Positions 11,421 through 44,338 are shown, numbered from the stretch's first letter. The stretch is DNA of 64,000 nt from Trypanosoma brucei (GCA_000002445.1 CM000207.1:1344001-1408000); one strand, 5' to 3'. The notes: a model not told the origin generated them from the sequence alone. A program made the numbers and translations.

Positions 11421-11570
11421 GGAAGGACTGCTATCGAAGCAGCGAACAGGGGAAGGAGGTATCGAGAAGTGGAGGGATTAATAATAACAACGAAAATATT
11501 CGTACAGCTGCTTACAAACATAAACCCAACACCTCCTTCGAGGCTTCGGGTTCCCCTTTACTTTTTTGTT

Positions 11571-11630
11571 TTAATATATATATAAATATATATAAAGTAA
11601 TACATATGCATATATATATATATATATATG
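11571..11630. repeat. (TA)n-rich microsatellite
   Basis: atatatatataaatatatataaagtaatacatatgcatatatatatatatatat. Confidence 0.85.
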
Positions 11631-12556: not shown

Positions 12557-12576
12557 GCACACACACACACACACAC
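12557..12576. repeat. (AC)n microsatellite
   Basis: cgcacacacacacacacacacgg. Confidence 0.85.
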
Positions 12577-13663: not shown

Positions 13664-13745
13664 CATACCATACATATATATATATATATATACGTATATA
13701 TGTAAATAAATATATATATATATATATATTATTATTATTATTATT
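13664..13745. repeat. (TA)n / (ATT)n compound microsatellite
   Basis: tatatatatatatatatatacgtatatatg...atatatatatatatatattattattattatt. Confidence 0.85.
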
Positions 13746-14368
13746 TTTATGTATGTTGATTCGCTTACTTGTCTTTCTCCTTTTTCTGACAGTCTTTTTT
13801 TTCATTTTGATTTCTACCTATTCTTATTTGGCGTTCTTCTTTGTTGTTGTTGTTGTTTTTTTTTTCAACGATTCATATCGCATCGCGTTACATTAATAGT
13901 TCTTCTCCTATATATATATATATATATATTCGTCTCTCCTTTTTCCGAGTCGCTTCCTTTGATTATAAGAGTAAATCTACCGCTCTTTCATATATCTCAC
14001 AGCATCTTTTTTACTTCATCTCTCCTGACTCACTTTTAACCATATTTTTTTTATTTTTTTTTCGCACTTATTTTTTTGTTTTCTCACATTTTTAAATTTG
14101 GGATTCTTCTCTCACTTAATCTTATATAAGTCTTCATTAATTCATTACTCTGTTCCGTCCTCCTTTTCTCCCTCGATAGACTTTGTTTTCTGTTGGTCTC
14201 TATTTCTCCCGTCCCCTTGTATCACATTTCATTTTCTTCTCTCTGCCTTCACTTCTCGTTCTTCCCTTACTGTTTTACCCTCCATCAGATTCTTTTATAT
14301 TCGTACACTCGCTCACTTCCGTCTACTTCCGCTTTACACCAGTCTCGCTCGTACGTACATTGGTAAGT

Positions 14369-25243: not shown

Positions 25244-25804
25244 CTAACTTTCTTGCAGGCTCGCTGCCCTCAGTTTCTCCAACGCTTCGGCGTTCGCTTG
25301 AGCAAGGTCACGAAGCTTTACTCGCCACTTTACATCAATCTTTGTGTTATCAATAACCAAGGAACACACTCTAGGGTTATCCTCTAAAAGAGCATAAAGA
25401 CTAACCGCAGCACCTTCGCTGATGTAATTGTCAGAAACATTGAGACGCTCGAGCGTCGGGTGTTTCACCAGTGTAATGCATAAAGCCCGAATGGCATTGT
25501 TACGAAGGCCATTTTCGGCAAGGTTGAGCTCCTTCAGATTTTGGCACCGCTCCACAACAGCGAACAGAGGAAGAGCCCCCTTGTCACCCAGGTAGTTGGA
25601 GCTAACATCAATACTCTCAATTACCGTGCACGCAGTGTACTGGGAGAGGATATCAAGCATACCACTGTTCGGGCTTATACGGGATTCCACACATGCCTTT
25701 ACGTATACATCCCGCGGTGGAACCGGCCTCGGTCGGATGATCTTGCTACCTGTTTTCCTTAATGGCCTCGCGCTGCGGGGAGGCATTCGCTCCTTAACCC
25801 TCAC
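25244..25804 (-). CDS. Leucine-rich repeat (RNI-like) protein, 186 aa
   Basis: Repeated LxxLxLxxNxI/L units (LKELNLAENGLRNNAIRALCITL, LERLNVSDNYISEGAAVSLYALL). Confidence 0.55.
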   Translation of the reverse strand: MRVKERMPPRSARPLRKTGSKIIRPRPVPPRDVYVKACVESRISPNSGMLDILSQYTACTVIESIDVSSNYLGDKGALPLFAVVERCQNLKELNLAENGLRNNAIRALCITLVKHPTLERLNVSDNYISEGAAVSLYALLEDNPRVCSLVIDNTKIDVKWRVKLRDLAQANAEALEKLRAASLQES

Positions 25805-26193
25805 TGCCCCTCACGGTTGCGAAAGCACCCGCTCTTTGGGTGCAAATAGGAAATAAACAAAATTAAAGCAAAGCAAAGGCGATGAAGCAACGTCGCGGAG
25901 ATATGCAACACGAAAGCACATGAACACGTATGCACAAGCCTGAATGGGGTGCCACTGTCACCTTTCACTACAGGAAGAAAAATGATGCCCCGGGGGGGGG
26001 CATATGACCCTCAACCTCGTACTACGCTAGTTTCCAAGAGGGAGCAAGTATTTCCCAAACAAACGATACTTCACAAAGAAACAAAAAAAACCTACTGAAT
26101 ATGCGATTTGCCCTTCCCTTGGAATATACTGGTCGCTACGCCCATATCGTCTTCTGTCCCTGAACTACGGAGCCGCACTGCTGTCCATACATC

Positions 26194-26454
26194 TTAGTAC
26201 TTCCACCACAGGAACGGGGAATTGTCCTTCGACAATGTTCCCTTGCTATTCACGCACGGGTAGACGCGGTTCATTCCAGTCACCAGGGAGTACGAAGCGA
26301 AGACGCATCCAACAGCCGAAAATGCACAAAGGGCGTAAAAGCCCTTAAGCGTATTTGCCATCGTACGCTGGCCGCGGGCGAAAGTAGTTTGCTCATGACC
26401 CAATGGCTCCTTAATGAGTTGGTGGCCAAGACGGGAGTACGACCGACGAAGCAT
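26194..26454 (-). CDS. Possible small membrane protein (86 aa), speculative
   Basis: Minus-strand ORF in a 1.3 kb gap with one hydrophobic helix (FYALCAFSAVGCVFASYSLVTGM). No homology recognised. Confidence 0.2.
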   Translation of the reverse strand: MLRRSYSRLGHQLIKEPLGHEQTTFARGQRTMANTLKGFYALCAFSAVGCVFASYSLVTGMNRVYPCVNSKGTLSKDNSPFLWWKY

Positions 26455-27135
26455 TCTTCACTTTATCGTAGAAGGTGCAATAGTATGCCAATGTATATGC
26501 GCGTCTCCTACGTGCAATCACTATGGGGAAAAACCTAGCAGTTGTAATGTAAGTGCACAAATCTGCGAGTTTCGTGGACAAATAAAAAGAATGGGGGAAA
26601 CCAAGCGAGCTAAACATGTACACAACGACTTGGGATAGAAGGCGGTAACGCATTGCAAACATATATCATTTGTTTTCGTTTTACCTAATTCACACCTCTT
26701 TTCACGTACTTACACTTATTTATATGATTATGCCTCCTGAAAATTTACTGGGGGTTCGGTACAGGGCACGTTACACTTACTTTGCCTCGTACAACAAACA
26801 TGAGAAGAGGTGAAGTGATTCAATTGGTGTGGGTAAAAAACGGTATCGGTCAGCGCATAAGTGCGCGTGTACACATGTATATAATTCTCTTATTCTTATA
26901 TAAGGGTTCAAAAGAATCTGTGCGCCACAACCGTGGGTATTCCACAGTCGCCTAAAACAAACAAACAGAACCACAGCATTACACCACGCCATACAGCCTG
27001 GCTTGTGTTGGCATACTGTTGCACATGCGACGCCATCCTCTCCAGGCTCTCCGTTTTGGGCCAAGGCAAATAGAAAACGGGTCTCAAAATAAAAAAAAGT
27101 GGTTTTAACACATTATTTTTTCCTCTCCTCCTTCA

Positions 27136-30100
27136 CTAAACCGCTGAATCTATCAAACCTTCTCGTTCTTCTCCCGCAACAACAGCCAGTTGATCTATAA
27201 CCGTTGGCCAAAGAGTTATAGGGAGGCGTTTCTCTATCTTAAAGTAGCCTGATGGAGTCAACGCCTGATTCTTCAGTGCTTTGGCAAACCGCTCCTTCTC
27301 AGGAGTCCACAATGGATGGCGAGTTTCCACCGGCTTCGTCTCCAGTGGTTTAAGCTCCATTTGTTTCTGCGCCAAGATAAGAAACTCATCGTCGTCCCCA
27401 CCGAGTAAGTCAGCCCAGCTGGTCGGTTGTGCATTCTTCGCTGCCTCAGTTGCCGCACGCTCCTTGTTTGCAAGTGCCTCAGACCGGAGCTCGTTATAGC
27501 GCTGGAGGGCGTGCAGCTTGCTTTTTTTCGGGAGTGATTGATATTCTTCACGAATGAACTCTAGCAACGATCTCGTGTCCATCTCCTCCTTCGCCAGTGT
27601 TACATTGTCCCCTGAGTCAACGAGAATGGTCAGTAGCGTCGGGTAGAAAATATGACGGCCCGTCGTAAAATATTGAAAGGGCATGGTGGAAAGTATCTTT
27701 GACAGCAGTGACTTGCCCTTCCCCCAGGCAAAGATGTCCTGAATTTCTGGATCCTGTATGGAGAGGTAGCCTATCAAAAGTAAGCATTCGTGTAACGCGC
27801 CGCGCAGGTTATTTTGTTGGCGGTTTGTCACGGAAACCTTCCCGGACGTTGCACAACTAATGGCTTCCGTTCTGGCAAGCAGCGGCATTTGCTCTGCCGA
27901 CACACCAAACTTCAATGCCTCCTCAAATGAGCCTCCAACAGCACCACGGGCAGGATTTTCTTCCTTAATCGCTTCCAAGCTGTCTGTGTGAGATTGTACG
28001 TATGTAAAGAACCCGTTAAGCATATGGAACAACTCAGTTCTTGTGAACGTGTTCGACGACTCCGTGGGTATGGTATTAGAACCAGAATGAGCGCCCGTCC
28101 GCTTGTTGGTGGGGGAATCGTGAAGTAGTTCCTGCAGTGTTTCCAGATTCCACCTAGCGAGGCAGTTTAAGGCATTAAATGCAACACAAACTACGGTAAC
28201 CCGCCGAGCACTAAGCACTGGACTCAGCTCACTCAAGGAGCAGCCGTTGGGTGTTAATATATTCTGAAGAAGGGCAAAAAAAGAGGATGCTGCTTCTTGA
28301 ACCAAAGCAATTGGGCACCCACCCTTTCTACGATTCAATATGCTTATTTTCGAGCTCAGAATCCGCGTCGCGCTATGTGCGACATCTAAGTCCTCTTCAT
28401 CCGAGCACACTTTTACAACGGCGATGCAGTACTTTTCTATGTTGGTTGAGTCAAAACTGCTAAGCAACAGCTCTCTCACTGACGACAAACTGGTATCCGC
28501 TTGCACGGCTGACGTGACGCCTTCAAAACACAAGTGTAGTGCTTCGAGCATAGCGTCGAGCGGAACGGAACGTGACTGACGCTTCAAGCCCTTAATTTCC
28601 TCACTAATACACTGCAGGAGAGGGGCAAGATTACCCGAGCGAACAAAAGATACTATGTGCTTTCTCCCTTCATTTTTGTCTGCAAGAAAACGCAGAAGTG
28701 CCTCGTGTGCAAGCCGAAGAACAGACATGTTATTCGTCCGCCTCGATTCCAGTATTACGCCAATTATGTTTTCATACGCATTAAAATACCGCATGTATTC
28801 ATGGTCAGTATCCCCGAGGTCCGGCGCCTCTAGAATTTCCCGCAGCGATTGCCGGACCTGAGTCACAGGGGCTGGCGAAATGCCTGAGCCTAACCGGGAA
28901 ATAGTCAACTTCAACTTACTGCGGTTCAGGTCCTTTTGATCTATCAAGCTCTCCCTTTGATATTTATCGATAAAGCTCCTCCCCTGGCGCGTGATCATCG
29001 ACAATACTTTCAAAAACTTTTGCTCCATTTCCTCTCCCTCCTCCCGTGGAATGGTGGGCATCAACTCGGCAATTGTGAGCTTGGTGTCGGGTTCACGCTC
29101 CTTGCGCTGCCTCGCTTCCTTGATTTTTTGCTCCTGCTCCTCCAGTTTTTGCCGCAATTTCGTAATCTTTTCTTCACGGAGTTGGGCACTTTGTTGTATG
29201 CGTTCCTCAGCCTTTCTGCTCCGGGCCTCGGCTTCAGCGGAGGCTGCCCTTTGACGCTGTTGAACCTTTTTTTCCCATTCCTCAGCACGTTGTCCCTTCA
29301 TGTCCTTTTCTAGTTTCTTTTGCTCTTCAAGACGTCTTAGGTTCTCGCGTCTTTGCTGCTCTCTCTGTCGTTGCCGCTCCATACGTTCTTGGCCGAGGCT
29401 TCGTCTCCTCTCAGCAGCAGCGAGTATGGCTTCGTTTCGCTCCTGTGCCAATCGTTGGAGTTCCTCCCTTTTCTGCTCCTGGTTGTGTTCCACCTCTGAC
29501 ATTTTCCGATCAAGCAAAAGTACCTTCGCTTGGTGGCGCAACTCATTGTTGAGTCGCACCTCCTCAACACGAGAGATCCCTCGCCGCGCACGTTCCTTTG
29601 TCTGCTCCCTTGCCTCTTCAACGCGCCGGGCACCACTTTCGAGGCGTTCCATTGTGTCGATACGTAGCCGCTCCTCCGCCTGCCTGCGCCGCTCCTTTGC
29701 AAGTGCACCCCTCTCTTCAGCTGCCTCTAATTTCAGCTTCATCTCTTGAATTTTCTCTAACCGTTTTTCTTCCGCTATACGCTGCCGCTCCTCACTTCGA
29801 AGTGCTGACGCGTGTCTCGCCGCAAGAATCTCCTCGCGCTGCTGCTCCTCGTCGGCGATCGGCTTCGGTGAGATCTTCTTGTTCTTAACCAAACTTTGTT
29901 TCACAGCGCGTAGCCAGCCGCTAATTTCACGCTCTGGCTTCTCCTGTTCATCGGTGCCGGAACGCTCGGGTTTGGGACACTTCGCGTTTGATGTGTCGGC
30001 CTCAGCCTCCCGCTGCACCCTTTCGCATTTGGCAGCTTTGGCAACCTTCAATGCACGCAGCCCGTCCTCCACAACGTTGATAAAGTCATCCGCCGAAGAT

Positions 30101-30297
30101 GGTGCATTTTTGTCCTTTAGACAGATGGTTACCTCGGAAAAAATGGTTCGCAGTTTCTCCAAAAGAACAGATGGTGCAGTAACTGTATTGGTGAATACAA
30201 CGCGAGGCTGTGATTGGGTTGCAGCAACACTATTTATCATTCCCGACTTGGTATAGCCATTACCAGCACGTCCTCCGTTACTTCTTGCAGCTTTCAT
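27136..30297 (-). CDS. Large coiled-coil protein (1053 aa) with R/E-rich coiled-coil block and a structured C-terminal region (possibly SCAPER-like)
   Basis: A ~300 aa ER/K-rich coiled-coil (EERQRIAEEKRLEKIQEMKLKLEAAEERG...). The C-terminal ~600 aa are non-repetitive. The SCAPER resemblance is a weak recollection, not verified. Confidence 0.6.
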   Translation of the reverse strand: MKAARSNGGRAGNGYTKSGMINSVAATQSQPRVVFTNTVTAPSVLLEKLRTIFSEVTICLKDKNAPSSADDFINVVEDGLRALKVAKAAKCERVQREAEADTSNAKCPKPERSGTDEQEKPEREISGWLRAVKQSLVKNKKISPKPIADEEQQREEILAARHASALRSEERQRIAEEKRLEKIQEMKLKLEAAEERGALAKERRRQAEERLRIDTMERLESGARRVEEAREQTKERARRGISRVEEVRLNNELRHQAKVLLLDRKMSEVEHNQEQKREELQRLAQERNEAILAAAERRRSLGQERMERQRQREQQRRENLRRLEEQKKLEKDMKGQRAEEWEKKVQQRQRAASAEAEARSRKAEERIQQSAQLREEKITKLRQKLEEQEQKIKEARQRKEREPDTKLTIAELMPTIPREEGEEMEQKFLKVLSMITRQGRSFIDKYQRESLIDQKDLNRSKLKLTISRLGSGISPAPVTQVRQSLREILEAPDLGDTDHEYMRYFNAYENIIGVILESRRTNNMSVLRLAHEALLRFLADKNEGRKHIVSFVRSGNLAPLLQCISEEIKGLKRQSRSVPLDAMLEALHLCFEGVTSAVQADTSLSSVRELLLSSFDSTNIEKYCIAVVKVCSDEEDLDVAHSATRILSSKISILNRRKGGCPIALVQEAASSFFALLQNILTPNGCSLSELSPVLSARRVTVVCVAFNALNCLARWNLETLQELLHDSPTNKRTGAHSGSNTIPTESSNTFTRTELFHMLNGFFTYVQSHTDSLEAIKEENPARGAVGGSFEEALKFGVSAEQMPLLARTEAISCATSGKVSVTNRQQNNLRGALHECLLLIGYLSIQDPEIQDIFAWGKGKSLLSKILSTMPFQYFTTGRHIFYPTLLTILVDSGDNVTLAKEEMDTRSLLEFIREEYQSLPKKSKLHALQRYNELRSEALANKERAATEAAKNAQPTSWADLLGGDDDEFLILAQKQMELKPLETKPVETRHPLWTPEKERFAKALKNQALTPSGYFKIEKRLPITLWPTVIDQLAVVAGEEREGLIDSAV

Positions 30298-32067: not shown

Positions 32068-33198
32068 TTAAAAGCATTTGCTGTGTACGATGCTGGGTCC
32101 CGACTCGTCGTATTCACTCTTCGTTATCCACATCGACTGGAAGGTTGTTAGTGATGAGAGGATGGAACCGCCAATCCACACGCTATACTTGCGCTCCGGT
32201 GGTGCCACAACCTTAGGCTTGATCGATGACGGTGCAAGATTGCTGATCTCCTTTCCAAGTCGCTCAGGTAGGTTCTTGAACATCGTGGTACCGCCAGAGA
32301 GCACAATGTTGCCGTAGAGATCACGACGCACGTCAATGTCACACTTGTTGATGGACTGAAAGGTCATCTCATGGAACCCAGGAGCCTCATCAAGTCCAAT
32401 GAGAGCAGGCTTAAACAATGCCTCGGGACAGCGGAAACGCTGGTTCCCCACCTGCATAACATTGCCATCAGGAAGTTCGAACGGTTCTTCGCTGACAGAT
32501 TTAGCACTGTTCGTCATCTCTTCGTCGAAGTCCAGTGCAACGTAGCATAATTGTTCCTTAATATTCCGCACGATTTCCTTCTCAGCGGAGGTGGTGAACG
32601 TCATACCAGTCTCCATTAGGATCTTCATGAGATATTCCGTCAGGTCACGACCAGCCATGTCCACACGACGGATGGCATGAGGAAGAGAATAACCCTCATA
32701 TATGGGCACAGTATGTGTCACACCGTCACCAGCGTCGAGAACAATGCCAGTGGTACGGCCAGAAGAATACAGTGACAACACCGCCTGTATTCCGACGTAC
32801 ATGGCAGGTACACCAAATGTTTCAAACATAATCTGCGTCATTTTCTCACGGTTTTGCTTGGGGTTCATAGGCGCCTCAGTCAGTAGCACGTTGTGTGACT
32901 CAGGGTTGACGCGCAACTCGTTATAGAAGGTATGGTGCCAAACCTTTTCCATGTCATCCCAATTGGTCACAATTCCGTGCTCAATGGGGTACTTCAGCGC
33001 AAGCACACCACGTTTCGCCTGAGCTTCATCACCAACAAACAGTTTCTTGTTTGCACTTCCCATCATCGCTTGCTCATTTTTGGGGCGGCCGACGATGGAT
33101 GGAAATACGTGGCGAGGAGCATCATCTCCGGAGAAACCCGACTTCACCATACCCGAGCCATTGTCACAAACTATAGCAGTTTGTTCCTCGTCCGACAT
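32068..33198 (-). CDS. ACT: Actin (376 aa), tandem copy 2 (stop codon TAA)
   Basis: Protein identical to copy 1. ATG at 33196-33198, verified by reverse-complementing ttcctcgtccgacat to ATG TCG GAC GAG GAA. Confidence 0.95.
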
Positions 33199-33302
33199 TA
33201 TTTTATGGCAGTAACGAGACCTTACGTAAAGCAAAACTAAATAAGAGCGGAGACTGCAATGCAGAGTAAAAAAAAAACATGAATTTCAGAAGACTTTGTT
33301 TT
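32071..33302. repeat. Tandem direct repeat unit 2 (actin ORF plus ~105 bp of 5' flank)
   Basis: See unit 1. The flanks diverge immediately 3' of the stop codons and ~105 bp 5' of the ATGs. Confidence 0.9.
33240..33300 (-). promoter_or_regulatory. Polypyrimidine tract / SL acceptor region upstream of actin copy 2 (identical element upstream of copy 1 at ~31726-31790)
   Basis: Plus-strand agagtaaaaaaaaaacatg equals a T-run on the transcribed strand, within the conserved repeat flank. Confidence 0.4.
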
Positions 33303-36300
33303 ATAAATGTAACAATTTTTTGTACTGTTATGTCAAAATCTTTTTTCAATTACGGATATTTACGCAGTTATTAACTTGCAGAATGGCGGTAGTTCATAGG
33401 ATGTCATTTGATGGTAACAGCGTTTATTCTTCGCATTCGTACACCTTGATTATTTTGTAGACATCCCTCTTGGCTCATATGTTCGATATCTTATCTTTTG
33501 TTGAACCCAGTGTCGTAGAAACCAGTCGTTTTTTCGTCATCTTAATGTTGGTTAACGTTCCGTGGTAACTTCGTTGTCCCTGGGGGAAAGCGGCCGACAA
33601 TGTATATGTTCTCGTGGCTAGCGTCAACTTTGTGGTCGTTTTTTGTTATTACATCCCCGACGACAAGTGAAAAAGATGGGTGGCGTACGCGGCCGTTTGT
33701 CCTAGTTTAACAGAATGTACCGCCTATTTCACACTTATGGGTATTGACTGAACGCCGCATGCAAGATGTTTTAAACACCTCCAGGTTGAAGCAGTGTTAA
33801 CCAACCACGCCTAATGTTTTGAATGTCACGACCTTTGAGCATTTGGATACTGCAACCAAATAATCAAGCCGCATCATTATGATGTGACTGAGGAAAAAAG
33901 AAACAAAAATGTCCCGCTAAGGTTCCACATGCTTCACCAAAAGCGACCTTAAGCCAACAAGTGGAAGATGACAACAGCATCCTCAGGTTGCGAGAACACA
34001 TTGTTTCGAACACCATGTGTGTTTTCATAGTGTGTAAGTACAGCCCCTTGTCTGATTACCACGAAAACACAAGTGAGTTAGAAGCCTTACCATCTGGTGA
34101 AAGGTCAAACTAACTCATATACGTTCCTCCTTGTCGTAAAACAAAAACAACCAAATCGATTACTAAACAAATAGCAGAACAATCTACAAACAGAGGGAGA
34201 CACTCGGCGGACAATAGTAAATGAATAGTAGTTAGTTGAGAAAAGCATGTGTCCACCTTCCAACACGAAACAGTAGCACACAAGTTGTTGTTACATGAAA
34301 AAAGTGAAGCGAAAATATACGATGCCTCTTTTCCTGCATACAAAACCTGGGTTCCGGATAACCTGGCAGTACAAAAAAAAAAAAGTCGAACTACATCGTG
34401 CGTCAAGCTATCGCTGCAACAAACCCTCCCATATGATATTCAAAACCCATAAGATATATATTTCACCTACATACCGTGGGGAGAAAAAAACCAAATTAAA
34501 CGGGGTCAGGAAGATGCAGGTGGAATACCCGAGTAAATGCGAAGCACCCGGGCACGGTCGTCCCATATTCGAGACACAGTTTTAAAAACAAAAAAGCTGA
34601 TTAGATAGATCACTTTAACAAGGGGAGAATAGCCCATAACCCATTCACACCAGTCGTTCACGTGTAAAAAAAAAAAGGAATAGGTGTGAGAGTTTCTCTC
34701 TTACAAAAAATAAAAATTAAAAAGCAGGGACCCCGATGAGTGCTCTCTGTCCAGTAAGAGTGCCCCAACAAAAAGGTTACATCACAGAAACACAAAGTCC
34801 AGGGAGAAACAGGGTTAACGAGTGCATAGTGTAATACTTTTAAAACATAAAATTCGAGACAAATTGTGATTAATGCATGTTTCAAAAAATAATTTTATTT
34901 CCACCAGCATAAAGAGGAAAGTTCCCCATTCACCTCATGTTACAGCAGCGATAACGCTAGGAAACGCACTGGTCAGTTGATTTCCGTTCCGCTGAGTTTG
35001 ATAAGCTCAGGTGTGAATTAAAAACGTACTCACGACAATGCCGATGGTAAATCGGGTGAATAAAACATCTATGTATGCTCGAAAAACACATGACATTATA
35101 AATACGTCTCCATAGTGCCTACGGAGTCAAATCGAAGGAGGCTGTTGACGGAAATACACTACAAATCGTCAGTTTGAATCATTGCAGCACACCAATGAGA
35201 TCTGAAAGATGCAAAAAAAAAGTATATGTGTTTCTATGGTACTATCCAAAATAATAACTGCAGAACGACGTCTCAACAAAAGAAATCATAATTATAATAA
35301 TGTTAATTTAATAATGACAACATTAACTTCAGTATACTATATTTCATCATGAAGATTTTAAGGGTAGAAATCGGGTACAACACGCATCCGGAAATGTTGG
35401 AATCAACCCTTTATTCCCTCACCTGCATCGTTGTACAAGTTAATACTGAATGCGACATGAAAGTACGTCACCACAGACAACGTCACCTCAAAACGGTACA
35501 GACACTCCCAGCCGGTTGGGTTAAACAACGCCATGCTGAAACTTTTACCCAGAGCAAGTCTACATGCAACATGCTGTTAGGGCACAAAAGTGCATACAAC
35601 GACGTTACAATGATTTAGGTCGATTTTTAAAAATATGTTGCAAATGGTAAAGATGGAACGAGCAGAAACCTTGTCCAATCATCCGAACACTGTTATACAC
35701 CAGAAGTTTTAACAAATAAAAAAAATAACGATCACCCACTTTGCGACAATTATCCCTTAAACCCATATACTTACGGGACAATAGAAGACACATTTCTCTG
35801 AAGTAATCCGAAGTGACTCATCCGCATCATTAGGTCCCCATAAAAACTACAATGGTGGAACCTTCAGAAGTGAACGGGATCATCCACATATGCAAAGCGG
35901 ACGAGTTTAGTCATTCAATTAATCATCGGCATGTACTGTGGACGTCCGACGACCTATTTCCTGTGTTCCGGTGAACATTCAAGTGCAACACGATGCCCAC
36001 TAGAAGATCCCTCAAAATCTTCTTTGCATGGAAAACCCAGAAAAATACTTAACCATCAGAACGAGCGGTGAATAGCGACATCACACTAATTACTCATCTA
36101 CCACTGGGCAAGGGCGGGTAGAATATTTTTTAAAAAAAATGAATGTGATGGAGCCTGTGCATTACCTTGATGCAGTAAATGGCACGCCCAAGCACTTGCA
36201 CCGAAACGTTCACCACCGAAGAAGGGTATTATACGCGTAACAAATGTGGGCGTCTTTTCGGTGTATCCACCAAAACCTTCTAGCAGTGTACTGTATTCCC

Positions 36301-37140
36301 AAAGGGGGAGCAAAGAGAAATGAAGACCGAACTCATCATAGGGAAGCGGATCAATATTGATACATCAAAGTTGGGCTGTTGGTTAAAAAAAAAATGGAAG
36401 TTCACCGACACAAAAGAAATCTACAAAGAGCCACACCACCATCAAAAAAAAAAAGAAGGAAAGTGGTGACATGGGTTTATTTAAGTTTTCTTTACATCAC
36501 CACTCGACAACAACGCGAACTCAAAAAAATGGTGCGAAAGAGGCAGCCAAAAAGTTCACCAACGATCGCTCTTGCAGACGGCATCAAGTGGAGCAGATGC
36601 TTCCTTTCCTTCCCGAGTTTTACGCCACCATAGTGTGGCATACGAGGGACCCGGGACACCGATGGGTTTGAATGGCATATTTCCAACCATCCCACTCACA
36701 CTCATGAATCGGAACAGAGTCAACTGGTCGCAGCGAGGGCAGTGGTCATTGCGAAGTGTAAGCTTCCTACAATAGCTGTTCGATACCGCAAATTCGTACA
36801 TGTAACCACAACGAAAGCACGAAAACAACGCCATCCTGCCGATATCCTAACAGAGAAGTTGAAAGGCGAAGGGGAATTTTTTGCTTTCAACACAAACGCA
36901 AGTGAGAAAGTCCAGACGGGGAGAAAGGGGACATACTTCTAAGAAAATGCGTGCTTCAGCATCGCCTAGGTCATGCAGGCGCACGCACACATATACGTAG
37001 GCACCGGCAGCGCAAGGGTTTCAGCATAGCCTCCAAGCGACAGAACCAACCAAATACCAACCAACAAACGGTACAAAAGTCACCCATCACCCACCAAAGG
37101 AGCCACACCAACGGTGGCAACTTCTTTCCTCCCTCTCCAG

Positions 37141-37167
37141 CCCCCCCCCCCTTTAAAAAAAGGGGGG
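37141..37167. repeat. Quasi-palindromic homopolymer block C11-TTT-A7-G6
   Basis: ccccccccccctttaaaaaaagggggg seen directly inside the GC-rich island. Confidence 0.9.
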
Positions 37168-40100
37168 CGCTCATCCTCGCACGATTGATAAAAGGAGGTA
37201 CGTCACACGCCCCCCGAGTGCCCCCGGCCCGACAAATACCCTTCAAAGATAAGACAAAAGACCAGCGGCGAAGTGGGGGGCCACACACACACACCGCAGC
37301 CGAAGCAACCCACCAGATTTTGTGGTGGCCCTCCCGTTCAAAGCGACCTGCACCAGCGCCTTATCATGCTCGACACCCAAACCCGCCGACAGGCGCCGAA
37401 GGACCGACACCGTAACTATGATCCGCATTCCACACCTGAGCCGAACCCCAGTAAAAACAAACAAAACACACGAAAATACGGCCCGCCCACGAGCGGAGGT
37501 GGGTGTGGACGGCCCCGCGGCAACAGATACAACCAGCATCCCAAAAACGCTCACAACAGGCACCGGCTCCGCCCACCACTCACGACGAGCCGGTCCGCAC
37601 ATGAGGTTAGTGGAAGAAAAAAAAACAACGGTCCAGCACAACGCCACTAGCACCAACACCAGGCAGGGCCAAACCTTTGACGAAGCAGTGCTCCACGGGC
37701 ATGGGACCCACGCGAGCCTCCGGTTTCTCGCAAAAGTAAGAGGTCATAAACATTGGCCCCACAGCGGGGCCCCAGCCGCGGTGCCAAAGCAGCGACAGGC
37801 CAATCCCCACACACGCGGAGTCCCCACCGCCACTGGCGTACGAACCTTTAATTGTTGCGAATGCGGCGGCCAGCCGCCCCCATGCACCCCGGGCCCCGAG
37901 CATCAGAGCAGCCGGATGGCCGCCCAGCATCGGAGAGAAGGCCGGTGGCAACACCACCCACTGTCCCTGGGGATGGGGGAGGGACAATGAACGAAATACC
38001 CATTCAACACTTTCCTCAACGCGTGGAGAACGGTGACGGGACCAAATGCAAAAAAAAAAAAGAAGAGCGCACACTAACCACATGATGCGGGCGCACGGCG
38101 TCGGCGGAACCGCCTGCACGGGGTGGGGGCATAGCGGCAGGGAATGGCGTAGGCGTCGCGAAAGATCTAAGGGCAATAAGATGTGTTGAAGTCAAACCTG
38201 CCGAACGCCTGTTCAATCGCGAAGACCAGACAACATTCGTGTCAACATATTTCCACAAATCAACTATCCTTAACCAATAACGGCTGAGGACGTTGAATTC
38301 GACGGAGGGCCGCTCATTGTGGTGTGGACATGAGTTCCCGCAGCCGACCGTGGAACCGAGCCACCGCTTCTGGAAAAGCAGTCGAATGCGCGGTTCGATG
38401 GCGCCCGAGAGGGGAAAAGAAGATCACCGGAGTGCAGCTCTTCCCTCGCATTACTTAGACACTGTATGAAGTAGGAGGGGCTGTGGTGGAGGCGGAAGAA
38501 AGGTAGCAGCAGCGGATTCACCGGCAACACACACAGGGCAAACGTCAGCGGAGGCCGCGACGGGCCCATTCTGGTCACAACCTCCAGCGCATCATTCACA
38601 CGTAGCAAGACTGACCCGAACAGCTTGGCAATAAAGCGGCGTGCAAGAATCGCAGAAAAGATACGGGTGGTTCCTAAGGCGGAGCGGGTGGGAGAAGCTA
38701 AACCATTTTATAATCCACACTAAGAATCAAGGCACAAAAAAAGCATCTCCCGTGGGGGAAGAGCGTGTTGACGACATTTTCCCGGCCAAAGGGCCCAACC
38801 TTATCGACCCAACAGCAGAAAAACTTTCTAGCACCTCGAAGAAGCAACAACGGTGGGCAAGGTGAACTCAGCGGTGAAAGAAACGACCCCAAGGCAACAC
38901 GAATACAAAACAGAAAAACTGGAAGAGGCCGAGGCAGGAATGTGAGACCTGGCTGCCGCGGCACTTGCACCACGGACGTTGAGCACATTAGTTGTAGGCG
39001 TCAAAGAGCAGAAGCCAACAAAACGGCGGTAAGCAGATGCTGTTGCGGAAATGTACTAAAAGAGGCTCAGAAAGATACGGCGAGCTCCGAGGGTGGAATT
39101 ATCAGGGGTAACAAACTATAAGTCTAAGTTGTTTGATTACGGAGGAGCGGAGGTTGACACAGAGTGACGTATACGCTGGAACTGCACCTAGAGAAGATTG
39201 CACACACGGAAAGAAATTGTAGAACCTTGTTTGGAAAGAGAGGAAATGCTTCGTGAGGTTTTATAATCACCGCGTGGAACACGGCGGAATACCCGGGCGG
39301 GGGTGAGAAGGGCGGTAAAACATCACTCTCGGGAGACAGAAAAAGCTTGCAAAAGAGGCGGCGGCAGCCCGAGAAGCGGCCCTTAGAAGTGTTTTCTCCA
39401 AGTCGATGAGGGGTTGATTGGCAGTACACTGAAAGGTCACTTTGATCGGTTGCTTACATCAAAGAAACCGCCGTTTATGCCAAAGCACCAAGCAGTAGAC
39501 ACCAAGTTTTTGACGTTTGGTGAAACAAGGTGGAGAAATGGGGAGACAGCAACTGCTTTCATGGATCGTGCAAGAGCGACCGGCTCAATGGATCGTCGGG
39601 GGATCACTCACTGTGGTTTTAAATCGCTGCGATGCGCATCTCCGCTTAGCGAGACGGATAGGACAGTTGCCGCATAACCGAAAATCCAAAATGAAGATGA
39701 GCAACGCGTAGCCAGGAGATTTCCTCGACCTTAGGGGTGTGGCGGGAATTTGTCCTCGAACCACTTCTGGTCGCTGTGATAATGGAAGCATAATAAGAGG
39801 CACTGATCGGAGCACAGGGATTAAGCATACCTTCCTTGCAAACGGTCCAATCGTCATACGCGCCGGCAGAGGTCTAAAAAAATTTTGAGCAAACGCCACG
39901 GAGGGAGCCTCGGTTGTGTGCCAATGAACGGTCGAAAAGACCTTTCGTGGAAATTTCGGCTGAAGAGGAATGCACAACGTCTCGGTGCTGCCGCGCAGCT
40001 GAATGGACTTTTGAGTGCCTGAGATGCTGGTAAACAAGCCGAATGCACCTAATATATCGAGCCTTACTTCACAACTGGTTAAGATCGCCGTGAAGCGTGT

Positions 40101-43054
40101 TCAAAAAATTTTAAGCCACCAAATCGAAACCTCCCAAGCCGTTTACAGATTCCTCAGTGTGGTAGGGTCGTGGGTACGACATTCCGTGGCTGTTTTCATC
40201 TCGCGTTGGCCCCATCGCACGGCAGGGACGGGAAAGAACTACGGTGTTTGGATGTCTTTGAGCGTGGTTGGGGAAACCCCACTGCTGCAGAGCGCTACTC
40301 GAGTTACATCATAGCAAGCGCGTTGCGAAAGGCGCGGAGAGGGGAGGCCCTCTTTTTAAGTTCCCCCGCTTATTGCCGCAACTGTGACGCGCAACGTTGC
40401 ATTTTGTGCTAATGTGGAGGCTGTGGGACAGGAAAATGCGACGTTGCGAAGCCGCACCCTGTCGTATGCGAAGCCACCTGGTTTTCCGAGTTGACAGCCG
40501 CTCGCCACGAACGGAGGGCCCTCTTTATTGTAAAACCCAAACAAGGAAGCAGAGTTCAAGACGTGAAAATGGGGGAACACCGGACGGTCGCGTCGGGAGG
40601 CCGCTGTGAGCGACAAATACGCTCTCCAGCGGAAACATCGACCTCGTCATCAACCGACAGTGCGGCGCCTTTGGTTTGCTTTGTTTCACAAGGCGTGCAT
40701 GCGCACATCGCAGCCGCCACGCAGCCTTTTTCTTCGCACAGGTTTTGTTGGTGCGGAATGAGCGCCCAAAAAGGTTGGTGCACGTAGTAATGGCCAAACT
40801 TAACCGAGGTCTACGCAGTTCGAAGGCGCCGCACATATATGCATATGCGTTGCGCCATGTTTCCCTAAAGTTGTCCAGTGGGTGAGCGTTTTTCTTTTTT
40901 TTTTCTTCACGTATGATGGCCGCGCCTGACTACCGCTGGCTTTGGATTTGGGGAACCGGCGCGCACTAACGAAATGCTGATCGCCGTTGCGTTCGGTGTT
41001 CTCGTTGACTTGTGGGATGTTTACGAACGCGAACTCTGTGGAAAGTTGAAATAATTAAGACGAAAATGCCTTATGGCAGCGCTGCGGATGATCAGGGAGC
41101 TACAGAAATGGAGGAAGAGGAGAATGTGATCGGGAATTCTTTCTTTCCCTTTAGTGACGTACACGGATGGTGGTTGGGAAATTGTTGGGATACGCTTTAG
41201 GAACGCCTCTGGCGGTGTCCGAAGATTTTTTTTTTCGTGCTGGACGAGGCGGGGGATAACTACACCAATAACTTTTTTTTTTTAAAGGAAACAGTTCGGA
41301 AACGGAAGTATCTCTATAACTCAATATCAGGGTACGACAAAAATCTGAACGCGCGGGGTAAATATAAGGGGGTGCGGTCTTCCTCTCAACTCATCACTTC
41401 CCCCTGTTTGTTTTACTGCTGCCTTCACTCCATGACAACGTCGGTATCATAGGGCAAAAATGCAAACATGTACTCTCCCGTATGGATGGGCGATCATGGA
41501 GCACATCACCGCACGCGATTGATTATTTTCCACCACCAAAACGAAAAAAAAGGGGGAAAAAAGACATGCGTAGCGCACAGTGTGTGTGAACACAGCGTTG
41601 AGTTCCAAAAGTTCCGCTTCACCACCTCATTGCGTTTTCTTTTCTCCCCCTTTCCTCAAACCCTCCAGATGCACGAAGATATCGGAATGAAAAGTAAGAG
41701 AGGGTAGAGACGTCCGATATGTGGCCCTGCAAACGCTAAATGCGACACGGCCCACAAAATGTGATAATATTCAGTTTTGTCACAATATACTGAGATCTCT
41801 CATACATTGGTCCTTTACCGCTCGAACCAATGGTGTGTGCCTTCATTTCCACTTTAGGCTTCACTGCCGTTATTCCGGTGATGATCAGAAGTTTGTATGA
41901 CTCCAGCACTGCGGATAATTCGCATTAGATATTTTACAGTAATTAGTGAGGCATTGATGACCATGTTGCCTTTAAGAACTGTACAGCATATTAGCAACAA
42001 TGACCTTATTCGAAAGATGGAGGGTATACCGCCCGTTCCTCTTCCCCTTCTCCATCCTTGTTGTGGGCAGAAAATAGCCTTGTGACCTGCTTCCAACAAG
42101 ACCTTTCATCTCCTACTGACTGATAAGGTGTTAACCGTAATGCACCGCTGCCAATATCAAAAATAAAATTAAAAAAAACCGCCATAGCCCTGTTCAATCC
42201 ACCTTTGCGCTATGGAAGGAAATTTGTCATCATCGTGCACGTTAAAACTTTTCCTCCCGATCCATAGCACCTGCATTTGCGAAGCCAGTACCATTGGGAA
42301 TTTAAAATAGTTTCATCACCCCTCCCCGCCTCGGTAAAACACCCAAACGGACCACGCATTGGCGCGTGAGGCGGACTCCAACAAGTCACAGACGTACACG
42401 CACATACATACATGAGAGTAAATGAGGCGCAAACCTACTTCTGTCTATCTTCACTTCCTTGGTTTTTAGCTTCAATAACCATGCGTGCTCCAGTCAATCG
42501 ATGCAGCAGTGACATTTTCTTGAATCAGCCTCGTATCACTGAATTGTGCAGCAAATGTACGCGCGAAACGCTGGGGATACCTCCGCATAAAGACATAATC
42601 GTCTCGTCCATGGGATCGCTGCGTGAGACTTTTTCGTGCGTGGGCAAGAGCTCTGCGGCAGAGCAAAGGCACGGAGGTGCAAATGCGATGTTTAACTGCT
42701 TTCATATTTATCAATGTCCTTCACATCTAAGCCATATCACCAAACTTTATCCTAACTGCTAAATGTATACGTGTGAACTCAAATAAACGATGATGTGGGA
42801 ACAAAACGGCAAATCTCCATTGGACCGTATTACATCAGGAGAAAGTTACCAAGTGAGTGTCGTAGAGCATTTCGAAACACTATTAGTGCTATTATTACAA
42901 AAACCTCACGTATTGTGTTGATGACGTGGTCATAATGACCAGTATTCTTGTTCCCCTTTCCCCCCTCCCCAATCCACCACACCGCTTTCTTTCTTTTCTT
43001 TACGTAGGGGTGAATCGCAACAGCCAAGTCCCGGTGAAACACCGATCGAGCTAT

Positions 43055-44338
43055 TCATTTCCGTTTCTTATTTTCCTCCTTAATGGCATCGAGCCGTTGG
43101 GCGAGTGGTGGATGAGAGTAGTGCAGCGCAGCGAAGAGCGGATCGGGTGTAAGCAAGTTCTTATTCTCCTTGTGTATAACCATCAGTCCTCTTATAAGCG
43201 GTTCACCATACCCAGAACTAACGGCGTACCGATCCGCCTGGAACTCAAATTGACGAGTCACGAGTGACACAAGATAACCCAGGAGTGTGTTAATGGGCTC
43301 CAAAAACACTTGGCTGAACAGCTCGAAACCAATGAGCGGATTGGCATCGCTGAACCCAAACTGCTTGTACAAGTCAGTGTTGAAAATTACGGCCTTTGCG
43401 CCGTATGATATACACCACGTTTGAGCAACCATAAAACCGAAGAAGAATTTGTCGTGGGAGTTCTTCCAGTGGCCGAGCTCGTGGCAAAGAACGGCAAGCA
43501 GCGCGTCGTGATCATCCTTCGTCTGCTCAACGATCGTATCATACAAAACAATGTGCTTCGACCAAAAACCATAGAAGTACGCGTTGCTGTGACCCGAGCG
43601 CCGCGAACCATCAACTTCGTATAGTTTCTTCAAAGGAAACTTGTGCTTTTCAGCGAGTGCATATATCTTCTTCCCCAACTCACCGTCCTTCGGTATCGGC
43701 GTGTACGTGTTGAATAGGGGCTGGATGAAAGTGGGGTAAACGAAGGTGAAAATGGTGATCAGGCCCGTCGCACCGAGGAAAAAGTAAAATGGGAAATCCT
43801 CGCCGAACAGTTCCACCACCTTGAGGATGAGCCCACTGGTCAGAACGTGCAACAGAGTCAGGCGAAGCAGAAAATACTTGGCAACGTCCAGAAAGAATTC
43901 CTTGCGCGTCATTTTGTTGAACCCATGTTTCTCCTCGATCACAAATGTTGAGTAGTATTCAAAAGGAAGGCTTATGAGTGTCGTTAGCACATCCGTTGCG
44001 ACGGCGTAAACGTAGCAATGTGAAAAGGAGCCCGTAGCCCCTGGTAATAGTTGGCCAAGGGATCCGTACAACTTGGCGGGCAGTTTTGCCAGCAGGGAGA
44101 CGTTGCTTATGACAATGTCCTTTACGTGCAACAAGATTGAAAAGCTGAGTTTCTCCCTTTCGTACTCCTGAGTGGTACGGAACTCCTTCTCTTCCACGAC
44201 GCCGACAAGGTGTTCAGGCATCTTTGCATTCGCGTATGCTTTACGCTGCCGGCGTTGAAGGTAAAGGTCCCACAGCGCCAGCGCATTGAGGCCGATCAGC
44301 GCCGTACCGTAAAATGTCATCCCACCCCACGCAACCAT
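43055..44338 (-). CDS. STE24: CAAX prenyl protease 1 (STE24/ZMPSTE24, peptidase M48)
   Basis: HExxH zinc motif in LLAVLCHELGHWKNSHD. Multiple N-terminal hydrophobic helices. C-terminal HPPLAQRL typical of STE24. Confidence 0.85.
   Translation of the reverse strand: MVAWGGMTFYGTALIGLNALALWDLYLQRRQRKAYANAKMPEHLVGVVEEKEFRTTQEYEREKLSFSILLHVKDIVISNVSLLAKLPAKLYGSLGQLLPGATGSFSHCYVYAVATDVLTTLISLPFEYYSTFVIEEKHGFNKMTRKEFFLDVAKYFLLRLTLLHVLTSGLILKVVELFGEDFPFYFFLGATGLITIFTFVYPTFIQPLFNTYTPIPKDGELGKKIYALAEKHKFPLKKLYEVDGSRRSGHSNAYFYGFWSKHIVLYDTIVEQTKDDHDALLAVLCHELGHWKNSHDKFFFGFMVAQTWCISYGAKAVIFNTDLYKQFGFSDANPLIGFELFSQVFLEPINTLLGYLVSLVTRQFEFQADRYAVSSGYGEPLIRGLMVIHKENKNLLTPDPLFAALHYSHPPLAQRLDAIKEENKKRK

What the first reader, a model, noticed from the sequence alone, without database searches (positions are those of the whole stretch)
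33303..43054. A 9.7 kb ORF desert in the middle of a unidirectional polycistronic unit
Genes are spaced roughly 0.3-1.5 kb apart everywhere else in the window. Between actin copy 2 (ATG 33198) and the STE24 protease stop (43055) there is no minus-strand ORF with coding character. All ORFs in the track here are 150 aa or shorter, overlap on both strands and have no domain signal. Trypanosomatid polycistrons are normally densely packed, so a ~10 kb non-coding block suggests a different function. It could be an internal transcription termination/re-initiation (head-to-tail unit boundary), a cluster of small RNA genes (snoRNA, snRNA or tRNA, which I could not resolve by eye), a long non-coding RNA, or a decayed retroposon or pseudogene tract.
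Basis: partly seen in the sequence, partly recalled or inferred. Interest (0 to 1): 0.7.

Follow-up and report, generated by a model that had tools for sequence, protein, structure and literature searches.

The report
Known polycistron boundary upstream of actin
The 9.8 kb "gene desert" between the STE24 protease and actin genes on Trypanosoma brucei chromosome 9 is an already published boundary between two same-direction transcription units, and it also holds a decayed retroposon, several weak non-coding transcripts and one real small gene (mitoribosomal protein mL100), so it is largely ordinary and not truly empty.

Summary
The window is T. brucei brucei TREU927 chromosome 9; window coordinate = Tb927_09_v4 coordinate minus 1,344,000.

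The 9,820-nt gap between large ORFs is real and is three times the next largest gap in the window. It is not empty:
- Minus-strand ORF 36556-36834 (92 aa) is 100% identical to PDB chain mL100 of the T. brucei mitoribosome. It is 77-82% conserved in T. melophagium and T. vivax.
- Kolev et al. 2010 mapped five spliced, polyadenylated minus-strand transcripts here. One is the mL100 mRNA; the other four have no conserved ORF.
- The same paper lists an "Internal" Pol II start between STE24 (last gene of one unit) and actin B (first annotated gene of the next).
- Window 37812-39976 is a frameshifted ingi/L1Tc-type retroposon relic (DIRE), antisense to transcription.
- Just downstream of the relic, the coding strand carries a G11 run and (GT)n-G motifs. 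This is the only cluster in 64 kb of the 10-mers that mark T. brucei transcription start regions. It lies about 3.95 kb upstream of actin.

In T. melophagium, mL100 is the first gene after a divergent strand switch and STE24 ends its unit. No tRNA, Rfam family, tandem array or hidden large gene was found.

Verdict: already known, low interest. One small new observation: a second, concertedly evolving copy of the relic sits at the next internal boundary.

The parts
42897..43054 (-). 3' UTR of STE24 / CAAX prenyl protease 1 (Tb09.211.0680). The main poly(A) site is at 42897. STE24 is the last annotated gene of the upstream transcription unit.
   Evidence: Kolev 2010 Table S13 gives PAS 1,386,897 and a 3'UTR of 158 nt. 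The coordinate offset of 1,344,000 was checked on three genes and on five splice sites. The protein is identical to EAN76881.
38800..42777 (-). Tb9.NT.102: a 3,978-nt spliced and polyadenylated transcript of low abundance (0.51 RNA per cell). It has no conserved ORF (longest ATG ORF 103 aa) and runs antisense across the retroposon relic.
   Evidence: Kolev 2010 Table S7. An AG dinucleotide lies immediately upstream of the published 5' end in the window. No Pfam hit in any frame of its 38800-41100 part; 41101-42777 was not scanned.
37812..39976 (+). Degenerate ingi/L1Tc-related retroposon fragment (DIRE), covering roughly the ORF start to mid reverse transcriptase. It is antisense to the transcription unit and is one of two 98-99.6% identical direct copies on chromosome 9.
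   Evidence: T. vivax ingi RT proteins give three collinear, frame-shifted tblastn segments with sum E = 3e-10. The second copy is at L018 9002-11259.
38910..39982 (+). Reverse-transcriptase relic inside the DIRE. Profile columns 337-399, 421-502, 518-570 and 602-694 match in frames +2, +0, +2 and +1. A weak endonuclease-region match lies at about 38109-38331.
   Evidence: hmmsearch i-E values are 4.5e-8, 9.1e-7, 1.3e-3 and 0.029. The best value in 20 codon shuffles is 0.36, and the best on the reversed window is 6.
36950..37960 (-). GC-rich block that is G/GT-rich on the coding strand, proposed here as the core or upstream edge of the internal Pol II transcription start region. It contains G11 at 37141-37151 and (GT)n-G at 37281-37295, 37805 and 37952.
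   Evidence: 37001-37500 has the highest GT(-) fraction of any 500-nt window in the 64 kb (0.672, z = 3.4). The minus strand has 8 exact hits to Wedel 2017 Dataset EV1 coding-strand TSR 10-mers in 37000-37999, against 2 or fewer in every other kb. The position of the start site itself is inferred, not measured.
36403..36846 (-). mRNA Tb9.NT.56, about 3 RNAs per cell. It is the first real gene of the downstream unit. The CDS is 36556-36834 and encodes the 92-aa mitoribosomal large-subunit protein mL100, with CxxC...CxxC motifs.
   Evidence: Kolev 2010 Tables S7 and S9. The protein is 100% identical over residues 1-92 to PDB 6hiv_Bh 'mL100'. It is 77% identical to T. melophagium and 81.5% to T. 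vivax. The four Cys of the two CxxC motifs and a C-terminal Cys are invariant in 8 sequences. The splice-acceptor AG is at 36848-36847.
33334..36331 (-). Three consecutive spliced and polyadenylated transcripts in the AT-rich spacer between mL100 and actin B: Tb9.NT.55 (36331-35360), NT.54 (35271-34287) and NT.53 (34202-33334). Each is present at 1-2 RNAs per cell, and their longest ATG ORFs are 52-62 aa.
   Evidence: Kolev 2010 Table S7. An AG precedes each 5' end. There is no Pfam hit, no PDB hit and no cross-species conservation.
37243..38083 (-). GenBank ORFs Tb09.211.0640 (37243-37602, EAN76877) and Tb09.211.0650 (37607-38083, EAN76878), both named 'hypothetical protein, unlikely'. These are annotation artefacts. 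A third, Tb09.211.0670 (39585-39857, EAN76880), lies antisense inside the RT relic.
   Evidence: Exact look-ups returned these names. All three are listed among ORFs with no detectable transcript in Kolev 2010 Table S2.

Best explanation
The interval is a head-to-tail boundary between two RNA polymerase II polycistronic transcription units on T. brucei chromosome 9. The description below reads along the minus strand, which is the direction of transcription.

The upstream unit ends with STE24, whose poly(A) site is at 42897. Polymerase runs on through about 4 kb of non-coding DNA, giving the weak processed transcript NT.102. This stretch includes a decayed ingi/L1Tc-type retroposon lying antisense (37812-39976).

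Transcription then starts afresh in a G-run/GT-rich region at about 38.0-36.9 kb. The first gene of the new unit is not actin. It is a 92-aa gene for mitoribosomal protein mL100 (36834-36556). Three weak non-coding processed transcripts follow in a 3.4 kb AT-rich spacer, and then come the actin genes.

Shown here or in published tables: the genomic location, the transcripts, the 'Internal' start classification, the mL100 identity, the retroposon relic and the synteny.

Inferred: the exact place of initiation (the G/GT-rich block), and the idea that the boundary descends from a convergent plus a divergent strand-switch pair like the one still present in T. melophagium.
For: Location:
- The flanking proteins are identical to TREU927 entries EAN76874, EAN76881 and EAN76882.
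- The offset to v4 coordinates was verified with 3 stop/PAS pairs. All 5 published 5' ends are preceded by AG.

Boundary:
- Kolev 2010 Table S14 classifies both adjoining units as 'Internal'.
- The main text says such sites show 5'-triphosphate RNA enrichment and coincide with variant and modified histone peaks.
- Nilsson 2010 refers to 'the actin promoter' as the one exception among Pol II promoters of protein-coding genes. Ben Amar 1991 is cited.

Sequence:
- The interval holds the GT(-) maximum of the whole window.
- It holds the only cluster of Wedel 2017 coding-strand TSR 10-mers, including a G11 run; G10 is the most enriched TSR 10-mer, 132 vs 17.
- Wedel 2017 shows that GT-rich elements drive directional initiation and H2A.Z deposition, and that 57 non-divergent start regions exist.

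Synteny:
- In T. melophagium, STE24 is followed by an 8 kb gap and two opposite-strand genes. mL100 is then the first gene after a divergent strand switch and is followed by actin.
- In T. vivax the order is STE24 - gap with an ingi - mL100 - spacer - actin.
- In T. cruzi and L. major the genes downstream of STE24 are different, so the interval is a synteny breakpoint.

Other parts:
- mL100.
- DIRE. DIRE/ingi elements typically occupy regions between directional gene clusters (Obado 2007).
Against: - The start site was not measured here. Kolev's table names only the first and last annotated ORFs, so initiation could lie anywhere between 43.0 and 33.2 kb.
- With 7- and 8-mers taken from the synthetic GT promoter, the block ranks only 9th-10th in the window, because ordinary intergenic T/GT tracts also score.
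- NT.102 shows that the upstream unit is not sharply terminated after STE24. No terminator mark (H3.V, base J) could be examined.
- Work cited in Wedel 2017 (McAndrew 1998, Marchetti 1998) argues that Pol II initiation in trypanosomes may need open chromatin rather than a specific promoter.
- The Ben Amar 1991 paper could not be read. Its '~4 kb upstream' position is from my memory only.
Confidence: 0.85

Rival explanations
1. Passive junk inside one continuous transcription unit. On this view the interval is only a decayed retroposon plus long UTR-like spacers, with no termination or re-initiation, and polymerase simply reads through from STE24 to actin.
For: Processed sense-strand transcripts cover 7.2 of the 9.8 kb, so polymerase does traverse the region. 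Most of it shows no detectable sequence conservation with T. vivax or T. melophagium.
Against: Kolev 2010 lists an internal start here, based on 5'-triphosphate reads that coincide with histone marks. The only TSR-type 10-mer cluster of the window lies here. In T. melophagium, mL100 heads a unit at a divergent strand switch.
Confidence: 0.08
2. A functional long non-coding RNA locus. On this view NT.102 and/or NT.53-55 act as regulatory RNAs, and the spacing exists to host them.
For: Four spliced and polyadenylated transcripts without a conserved ORF are published. The distance from the mL100 stop to the actin ATG is similar in T. brucei (3357 nt), T. vivax (3531 nt) and T. melophagium (3529 nt).
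Against: Abundance is 0.5-2 RNAs per cell. Their sequence is not detectably conserved between species. There is no Rfam match. In T. melophagium the same space holds an EMP70 gene, so the similar length need not reflect an RNA function.
Confidence: 0.05
3. A cluster of small RNA genes (tRNA, snRNA, snoRNA), which often mark unit boundaries in trypanosomes.
For: Several internal boundaries in Kolev Table S14 are 'next to tRNA/snRNA/rRNA'.
Against: ARAGORN found no tRNA in the whole window. Rfam gave 0 matches at the gathering threshold for the window and 0 at E<=1 for 33000-43200. This particular boundary is typed 'Internal', not 'next to tRNA'.
Confidence: 0.01
4. A centromere, or a mis-assembled or frameshifted large gene.
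For: T. brucei centromeres lie between directional gene clusters and contain DIRE/ingi elements (Obado 2007).
Against: Centromeres also need kilobase-scale AT-rich tandem arrays, and TRF finds none between 30 and 46 kb. The interval is collinear at 97-99.8% identity in three independent Trypanozoon assemblies. The frames that were scanned match no protein family other than the retroposon RT: six frames of 36301-41100 and the minus frames of 33235-36555; 41101-43054 and the plus frames of 33303-36300 were not scanned.
Confidence: 0.01

Closest known systems
Non-divergent ('internal', head-to-tail) RNA pol II transcription start regions of T. brucei (Siegel 2009; Kolev 2010; Wedel 2017)
   Same: Genes on both sides are on the same strand. 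The locus is listed as 'Internal' in Kolev Table S14. The coding strand carries a G-run and GT-rich 10-mers of the kind enriched in start regions. A gene-poor stretch separates a termination side from a start side.
   Different: Nothing essential differs; this locus is one of the published set. At 9.8 kb the gap is relatively large, because it also holds a retroposon relic and a 3.4 kb spacer.
The 'actin gene promoter' of T. brucei (Ben Amar et al. 1991, Nucleic Acids Res 19:5857)
   Same: It concerns the same gene cluster. The G11/GT block is 3.95 kb upstream of the actin B ATG, which fits my recollection that the promoter was placed about 4 kb upstream of the cluster. Nilsson 2010 still cites it as the only Pol II promoter for protein-coding genes.
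   Different: The paper could not be read, so whether the fragments are the same is unverified. The first gene downstream of the start is mL100, not actin.
DIRE (degenerate ingi/L1Tc-related elements) between directional gene clusters and at synteny breaks
   Same: It shows frameshifted, stop-ridden similarity to ingi-type endonuclease/RT. It lies between two units and at a T. brucei / T. cruzi / Leishmania synteny breakpoint. Obado 2007 describes DIRE/ingi elements in such regions.
   Different: Only about 2.2 kb is recognisable. No Pr77 5' hallmark was detected, and no RNase H or zinc-finger part. The match is to T. vivax ingi rather than to a T. equiperdum ingi copy. It exists as two nearly identical direct copies that evolve in concert, which indicates DNA-level duplication or conversion rather than retrotransposition.
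Pr77 internal promoter of L1Tc/ingi/DIRE (Heras et al. 2007, PMC1874656)
   Same: It is a retroposon-derived sequence next to a Pol II start region.
   Different: The relic is antisense to the unit it precedes. blastn with an ingi 5' end found nothing and Rfam found no HDV-like ribozyme. Retroposon-driven initiation of the actin unit is therefore not supported.

Membership tests
Non-divergent Pol II transcription start region (T. brucei) | Flanking genes lie on the same strand, with one unit ending and the next beginning | tested here: met
   All large ORFs are on the minus strand. Kolev Table S14 has one unit ending at Tb09.211.0680 (STE24) and the next starting at Tb09.211.0630 (actin B).
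Non-divergent Pol II transcription start region (T. brucei) | Enrichment of 5'-triphosphate primary transcripts, Pol II, H2A.Z/H2B.V and H4K10ac | not testable with these tools
   No read data were available. The only support is the published classification 'Internal' and the text stating that such sites show these marks.
Non-divergent Pol II transcription start region (T. brucei) | G-runs and GT-rich 10-mers enriched on the coding strand | tested here: met
   The minus strand has 8 exact Dataset EV1 10-mer hits in 37000-37999, against 2 or fewer in every other kb, and a G11 run at 37141-37151. The GT(-) fraction is 0.672, z = 3.4. A cruder 7/8-mer test was not discriminating.
Non-divergent Pol II transcription start region (T. 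brucei) | H3.V/H4.V/base J termination marks just upstream of the start region | not testable with these tools
   This needs ChIP-seq or J-IP data. The general rule is quoted in Wedel 2017.
DIRE / ingi-L1Tc clade non-LTR retroposon | Similarity to the ingi-type endonuclease/reverse-transcriptase ORF, interrupted by stops and frameshifts | tested here: met
   tblastn sum E = 3e-10 with three collinear segments in two frames. Profile hits have i-E 4.5e-8 to 0.029 and are collinear, and shuffle and reversed controls give 0.36 or worse.
DIRE / ingi-L1Tc clade non-LTR retroposon | Pr77/79-nt 5' signature (HDV-like ribozyme/promoter) | tested here: not met
   blastn of a T. equiperdum ingi locus against the window found nothing. 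Rfam gave no match at E<=1. The signature may be lost or too decayed, so this weakens only the claim of a complete element.
DIRE / ingi-L1Tc clade non-LTR retroposon | 3' poly(A) tail and target-site duplication | not tested
   The recognisable part stops in mid-RT at 39976-39982, so no 3' end could be defined.
Mitoribosomal protein mL100 (kinetoplastid-specific large-subunit protein) | Sequence identity to the chain modelled in solved T. brucei mitoribosome structures | tested here: met
   It is 92/92 identical to 6hiv_Bh (also 6hix and 6yxy) and matches residues 2-92 of 7aoi_Bh. It is homologous to mL100 in 7aih.
tRNA / snRNA / snoRNA gene cluster | Matches to tRNA or Rfam covariance models | tested here: not met
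   all returned zero.
T. brucei centromere | Kilobase-scale AT-rich tandem repeat array next to DIRE/ingi elements | tested here: not met
   TRF found no array in 30-46 kb. The criterion is from Obado 2007.

The most novel reading that the evidence does not exclude
The 2.2 kb antisense DIRE fragment may be a functional boundary element rather than an inert relic. Supporting observations:
- Two direct copies sit in the two consecutive 'Internal' boundaries that delimit one ~139 kb transcription unit (PACRGB | Tb09.211.1400 ... STE24 | mL100).
- Each copy ends 0.9-1.0 kb upstream of the first gene and is followed by the GT-richest stretch of its locus.
- The two copies within T. b. gambiense are more alike (99.6%) than orthologous copies between subspecies (96.9-98.5%).

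One reading is that the repeat helps stop the incoming polymerase or positions the start region, and is kept uniform by conversion or selection. A second reading is that the direct repeats mediate rearrangement of the intervening unit.
Probability: 0.1. Interest if true: 0.6.

Novelty: already known. Interest (0 to 1): 0.22.

Why it matters
It matters little as a discovery. The boundary, the transcripts and the small gene were all published in 2010, mL100 has since been modelled in solved mitoribosome structures, and an 'actin promoter' was reported in 1991.

It is useful in two ways. First, it is a worked example: a long ORF-free stretch inside a trypanosome polycistron should be read as a candidate head-to-tail unit boundary, and it can still hide real genes under 100 aa. 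mL100 is absent from the TREU927 GenBank annotation, and it is not called in the T. vivax locus examined.

Second, one observation may be worth a genome-wide check: a DIRE fragment duplicated at two successive boundaries and evolving in concert. The question is whether retroposon relics are systematically associated with non-divergent start or termination regions.

Tried and rejected
- Pfam on six-frame translations with stops masked as X gave no hit: 36301-41100 in both strands and 33235-36555 on the minus strand.
- Rfam at the gathering threshold and at E<=1, ARAGORN, and TRF all found nothing.
- The repeat finder on the whole window returned only low-complexity families and the actin duplication.
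- A T. equiperdum ingi copy (L012) used as query by blastn, tblastx and tblastn gave no significant hit. Only the T. vivax ingi proteins and a profile built from them detected the relic.
- I searched for remnants of the T. melophagium genes that occupy the equivalent space (methyltransferase, LRR protein, EMP70). There were none in T. brucei or T. vivax.
- The spacers of the three species do not align.
- A PDB search of all minus-strand frames of 33235-36555, looking for further hidden small proteins, found none.
- The Logan contig L001 seemed to show a mitochondrial-carrier gene right after STE24. It diverges from the window at 42972 and its remainder matches nowhere else in the window, so I read it as probably a chimeric assembly.
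- Two Logan contigs carrying mL100 homologues were uninformative about neighbouring genes.
- The 7/8-mer content of the synthetic GT promoter was not discriminating and was replaced by the published 10-mer list.
- Weak RT-like tblastn hits at 33342-33704 (+) were not reproduced by the profile search and were dropped.
- Ben Amar 1991, Siegel 2009 and Cordon-Obras 2022 are not held in the library.

Full report
**Where the window comes from.** Three proteins flanking the interval are identical to T. brucei brucei TREU927 entries: EAN76874, EAN76881 (CAAX prenyl protease 1, i.e. STE24) and EAN76882, all on a 3.06 Mb contig. Kolev et al. 2010 (PMC2936537) give poly(A) sites and 3'UTR lengths for actin A (Tb09.211.0620), actin B (Tb09.211.0630) and Tb09.211.0680. 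These place the three stop codons at window 30554, 32068 and 43055 if window = Tb927_09_v4 minus 1,344,000. As a second check, all five 5' ends published for novel transcripts in this interval fall directly after an AG dinucleotide on the minus strand of the window.

**The observation.** All ORFs of 180 aa or more outside the interval are on the minus strand. The gap between the actin B ORF and the STE24 ORF is 9,820 nt. The other gaps have a median of about 370 nt and a maximum of 3,116 nt. So the gap is real and exceptional within the window. The statement that all ORFs are 150 aa or shorter is slightly off, since ORFs of 222, 189 and 154 aa exist with non-ATG starts. The statement that no minus-strand ORF has coding character is wrong, as shown below.

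**What was excluded.** There are no tRNAs, no Rfam family at the gathering threshold in the window or at E<=1 in 33000-43200, and no tandem arrays. Masked frame translations gave no Pfam domain in 36301-41100 (six frames) or 33235-36555 (minus-strand frames). The interval is collinear at 97-99.8% identity in T. equiperdum and T. b. gambiense assemblies, so it is not a mis-assembly.

**A real gene inside the 'desert'.** Kolev 2010 Table S7 lists five minus-strand spliced and polyadenylated transcripts here. In window coordinates they are:
- NT.102, 42777-38800
- NT.56, 36846-36403
- NT.55, 36331-35360
- NT.54, 35271-34287
- NT.53, 34202-33334

Table S9 of the same paper shows that NT.56 encodes a 92-aa protein conserved in T. 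cruzi and L. major. This is the ATG ORF at 36556-36834 (-). It is 92/92 identical to the chain named mL100 in PDB entries 6hiv, 6hix and 6yxy, and matches residues 2-92 in 7aoi. From memory, these are T. brucei mitoribosome structures. The protein is 77% identical to the T. melophagium homologue and 81.5% to an uncalled ORF in T. vivax. The four cysteines of its two CxxC motifs, and a C-terminal cysteine, are invariant across eight sequences. tblastx between T. melophagium and T. brucei finds conservation only over this ORF. The gene is annotated in T. equiperdum, T. cruzi and T. melophagium, but the TREU927 record does not appear among the sources of this sequence. The other four transcripts have longest ATG ORFs of 52-103 aa. 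The minus-strand frames of the NT.53-55 spacer gave no PDB or Pfam match, and no conservation with T. melophagium was found across the interval. The three GenBank ORFs in the GC-rich block are named 'hypothetical protein, unlikely' and had no detectable transcript.

**A published unit boundary.** Kolev 2010 Table S14 lists 'Tb09.211.1400 -> Tb09.211.0680, minus, Internal' and 'Tb09.211.0630 -> Tb09.211.0040, minus, Internal'. One unit therefore ends at STE24, and the next begins, by annotated ORFs, at actin B. The paper states that such internal sites show enrichment of 5'-triphosphate reads in both directions and coincide with the histone marks of Siegel 2009. Nilsson 2010 still refers to 'the actin promoter' as the sole known Pol II promoter for protein-coding genes. 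The original paper (Ben Amar 1991, cited) could not be read.

**Sequence support for the position of initiation.** The 500-nt window 37001-37500 has the highest G+T fraction on the coding (minus) strand of the whole 64 kb (0.672, z = 3.4). Wedel 2017 showed that GT-rich coding-strand elements drive directional initiation and H2A.Z deposition, and that there are 57 non-divergent start regions. [quoted passage not shown] G10 is by far the strongest, at 132 vs 17 in the first fifth of the regions. Scanning the window with the G/GT-class 10-mers gives 8 exact minus-strand hits in 37000-37999 and 2 or fewer in every other kilobase. The hits include a G11 run at 37141-37151 and GGTGTGTGTG/GTGTGTGTGG at 37281-37295. 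The G11 run is 3.95 kb upstream of the actin B ATG. A cruder test with 7- and 8-mers from the synthetic promoter did not single out the block. I therefore place the upstream edge of the start region at about 38.0-36.9 kb. This is an inference, not a measurement.

**The retroposon relic.** T. vivax ingi reverse-transcriptase proteins came from a Tvingi found downstream of the T. vivax STE24 gene. They hit the plus strand of the window in three collinear segments in two reading frames: residues 83-144 at 38916-39101, 155-214 at 39136-39312 and 246-309 at 39408-39593. The spacing matches that of the query, and the sum E is 3e-10. A profile built from 78 of these proteins gives collinear hits at 38910-39098, 39163-39411, 39456-39608 and 39707-39982 (i-E 4.5e-8 to 0.029), plus a weak endonuclease-region hit near 38109-38331. 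The best value in 20 codon shuffles is 0.36, the best on the reversed window is 6, and the best elsewhere in the window is 0.26. The element is antisense to the transcription unit. No Pr77 signature, RNase H or zinc-finger part was found, and a T. equiperdum ingi copy did not detect it. It is therefore an old, partial DIRE.

**Synteny.** The gene block upstream of STE24 (GTPase, SAC3, FMN dehydrogenase, ankyrin, STE24) is conserved in T. vivax, T. cruzi and T. melophagium. What follows STE24 differs between species:
- T. cruzi: a 5.4 kb gene-free stretch, then DOT1.
- L. major: different genes on both sides.
- T. vivax: a gap of about 6 kb, a sense-oriented Tvingi, then mL100, a 3,531-nt AT-rich spacer and actin.
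- T. melophagium: an 8 kb gap, two genes on the opposite strand, a divergent strand switch, then mL100, an EMP70 gene and four actin genes.

So STE24 ends a unit and mL100 begins one in a species where the boundary is an ordinary convergent plus divergent pair. The T. brucei and T. vivax arrangement looks like the same boundary without the small opposite-strand unit. I found no remnant of those genes or of EMP70 in T. brucei, so the direction of change is not established. DIRE/ingi elements are known to sit between directional gene clusters (Obado 2007). A centromere is excluded because the required AT-rich arrays are absent.

**A side observation.** The 90-aa 'unlikely' ORF inside the relic clusters at 90% identity or more with another 'unlikely' ORF on the same chromosome. 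Fetching that locus in T. b. gambiense showed that window 37812-39976 has a second, direct copy (97.9% identical) in a 6.1 kb gap between PACRGB (Tb09.211.1470) and a kinesin gene. According to Kolev Tables S2 and S14, that gap is the next 'Internal' boundary upstream, Tb09.211.1470 | Tb09.211.1400. The two copies thus flank one ~139 kb unit. Within T. b. gambiense the two copies are 99.6% identical. That is more than the orthologous copies of TREU927 and gambiense (96.9-98.5%), which indicates concerted evolution. In both loci the copy ends 0.9-1.0 kb upstream of the first gene and is followed by the GT-richest stretch of the locus, although those stretches are not homologous. With two copies this may be no more than a converted duplicate. 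It is the only element of possible novelty.

**Verdict.** However, the interval is not a pure desert, and the whole picture is already in the literature. Novelty: already known. Interest: low.

Noticed in passing
window 37812-39976; L018 9002-11259 (T. b. gambiense chr 9, about 139 kb away): The DIRE fragment has a second, direct copy that lies in the next 'Internal' transcription-unit boundary (PACRGB | Tb09.211.1400). The two copies within gambiense are 99.6% identical, more than orthologous copies between subspecies (96.9-98.5%). Each copy ends 0.9-1.0 kb upstream of the first gene of a unit.
   Followed up: partly
window 33199-36555; L015 14248-17778; L013 10280-13808: The distance from the mL100 stop to the first actin ATG is 3357 nt in T. 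brucei, 3531 nt in T. vivax and 3529 nt in T. melophagium. In T. melophagium this space holds an EMP70 gene. In the two salivarian species it is AT-rich (28-45% GC) with no detectable homology to EMP70 or to each other.
   Followed up: partly
L015 13969-14244 (T. vivax GCA_021307395.1): An intact mL100 ORF (81.5% identical to T. brucei) is present but was not called as a gene in this assembly. The TREU927 GenBank record likewise does not appear among the sources of the mL100 protein sequence.
   Followed up: yes
L001 1458-2683 versus window 42972: A Logan assembly contig follows the window exactly through STE24 and 83 nt of its 3'UTR. It then continues into a mitochondrial-carrier gene that is found nowhere in the window. 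It is probably a chimeric assembly join, not a structural variant.
   Followed up: partly
window 3978-3991 (+): There is a G14 run on the plus strand (C14 on the coding strand), giving 8 hits to start-region 10-mers on the non-coding strand. It overlaps the 3' end of the ORF at 3939-4535 (-). Its meaning is unknown.
   Followed up: no
window 11253-14368: This is the second-largest ORF-free gap (3.1 kb). It contains (AT)n-rich inverted repeats, with arms at 11572-11630 and 13673-13731 that are 85% complementary.
   Followed up: no
window about 25957-26609 (-): Kolev 2010 lists a further small conserved gene, Tb9.NT.52, in the 1.3 kb gap between the ORFs at 25244-25804 and 27136-30297. It encodes an 86-aa protein with T. 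cruzi and L. major homologues. This is another sub-100-aa gene that an ORF-length filter would miss.
   Followed up: no
L009/L010 11288-16627 (T. cruzi): T. cruzi also has a 5.4 kb stretch without called genes directly after STE24, before DOT1. The RT profile found no ingi/L1Tc relic in it.
   Followed up: partly
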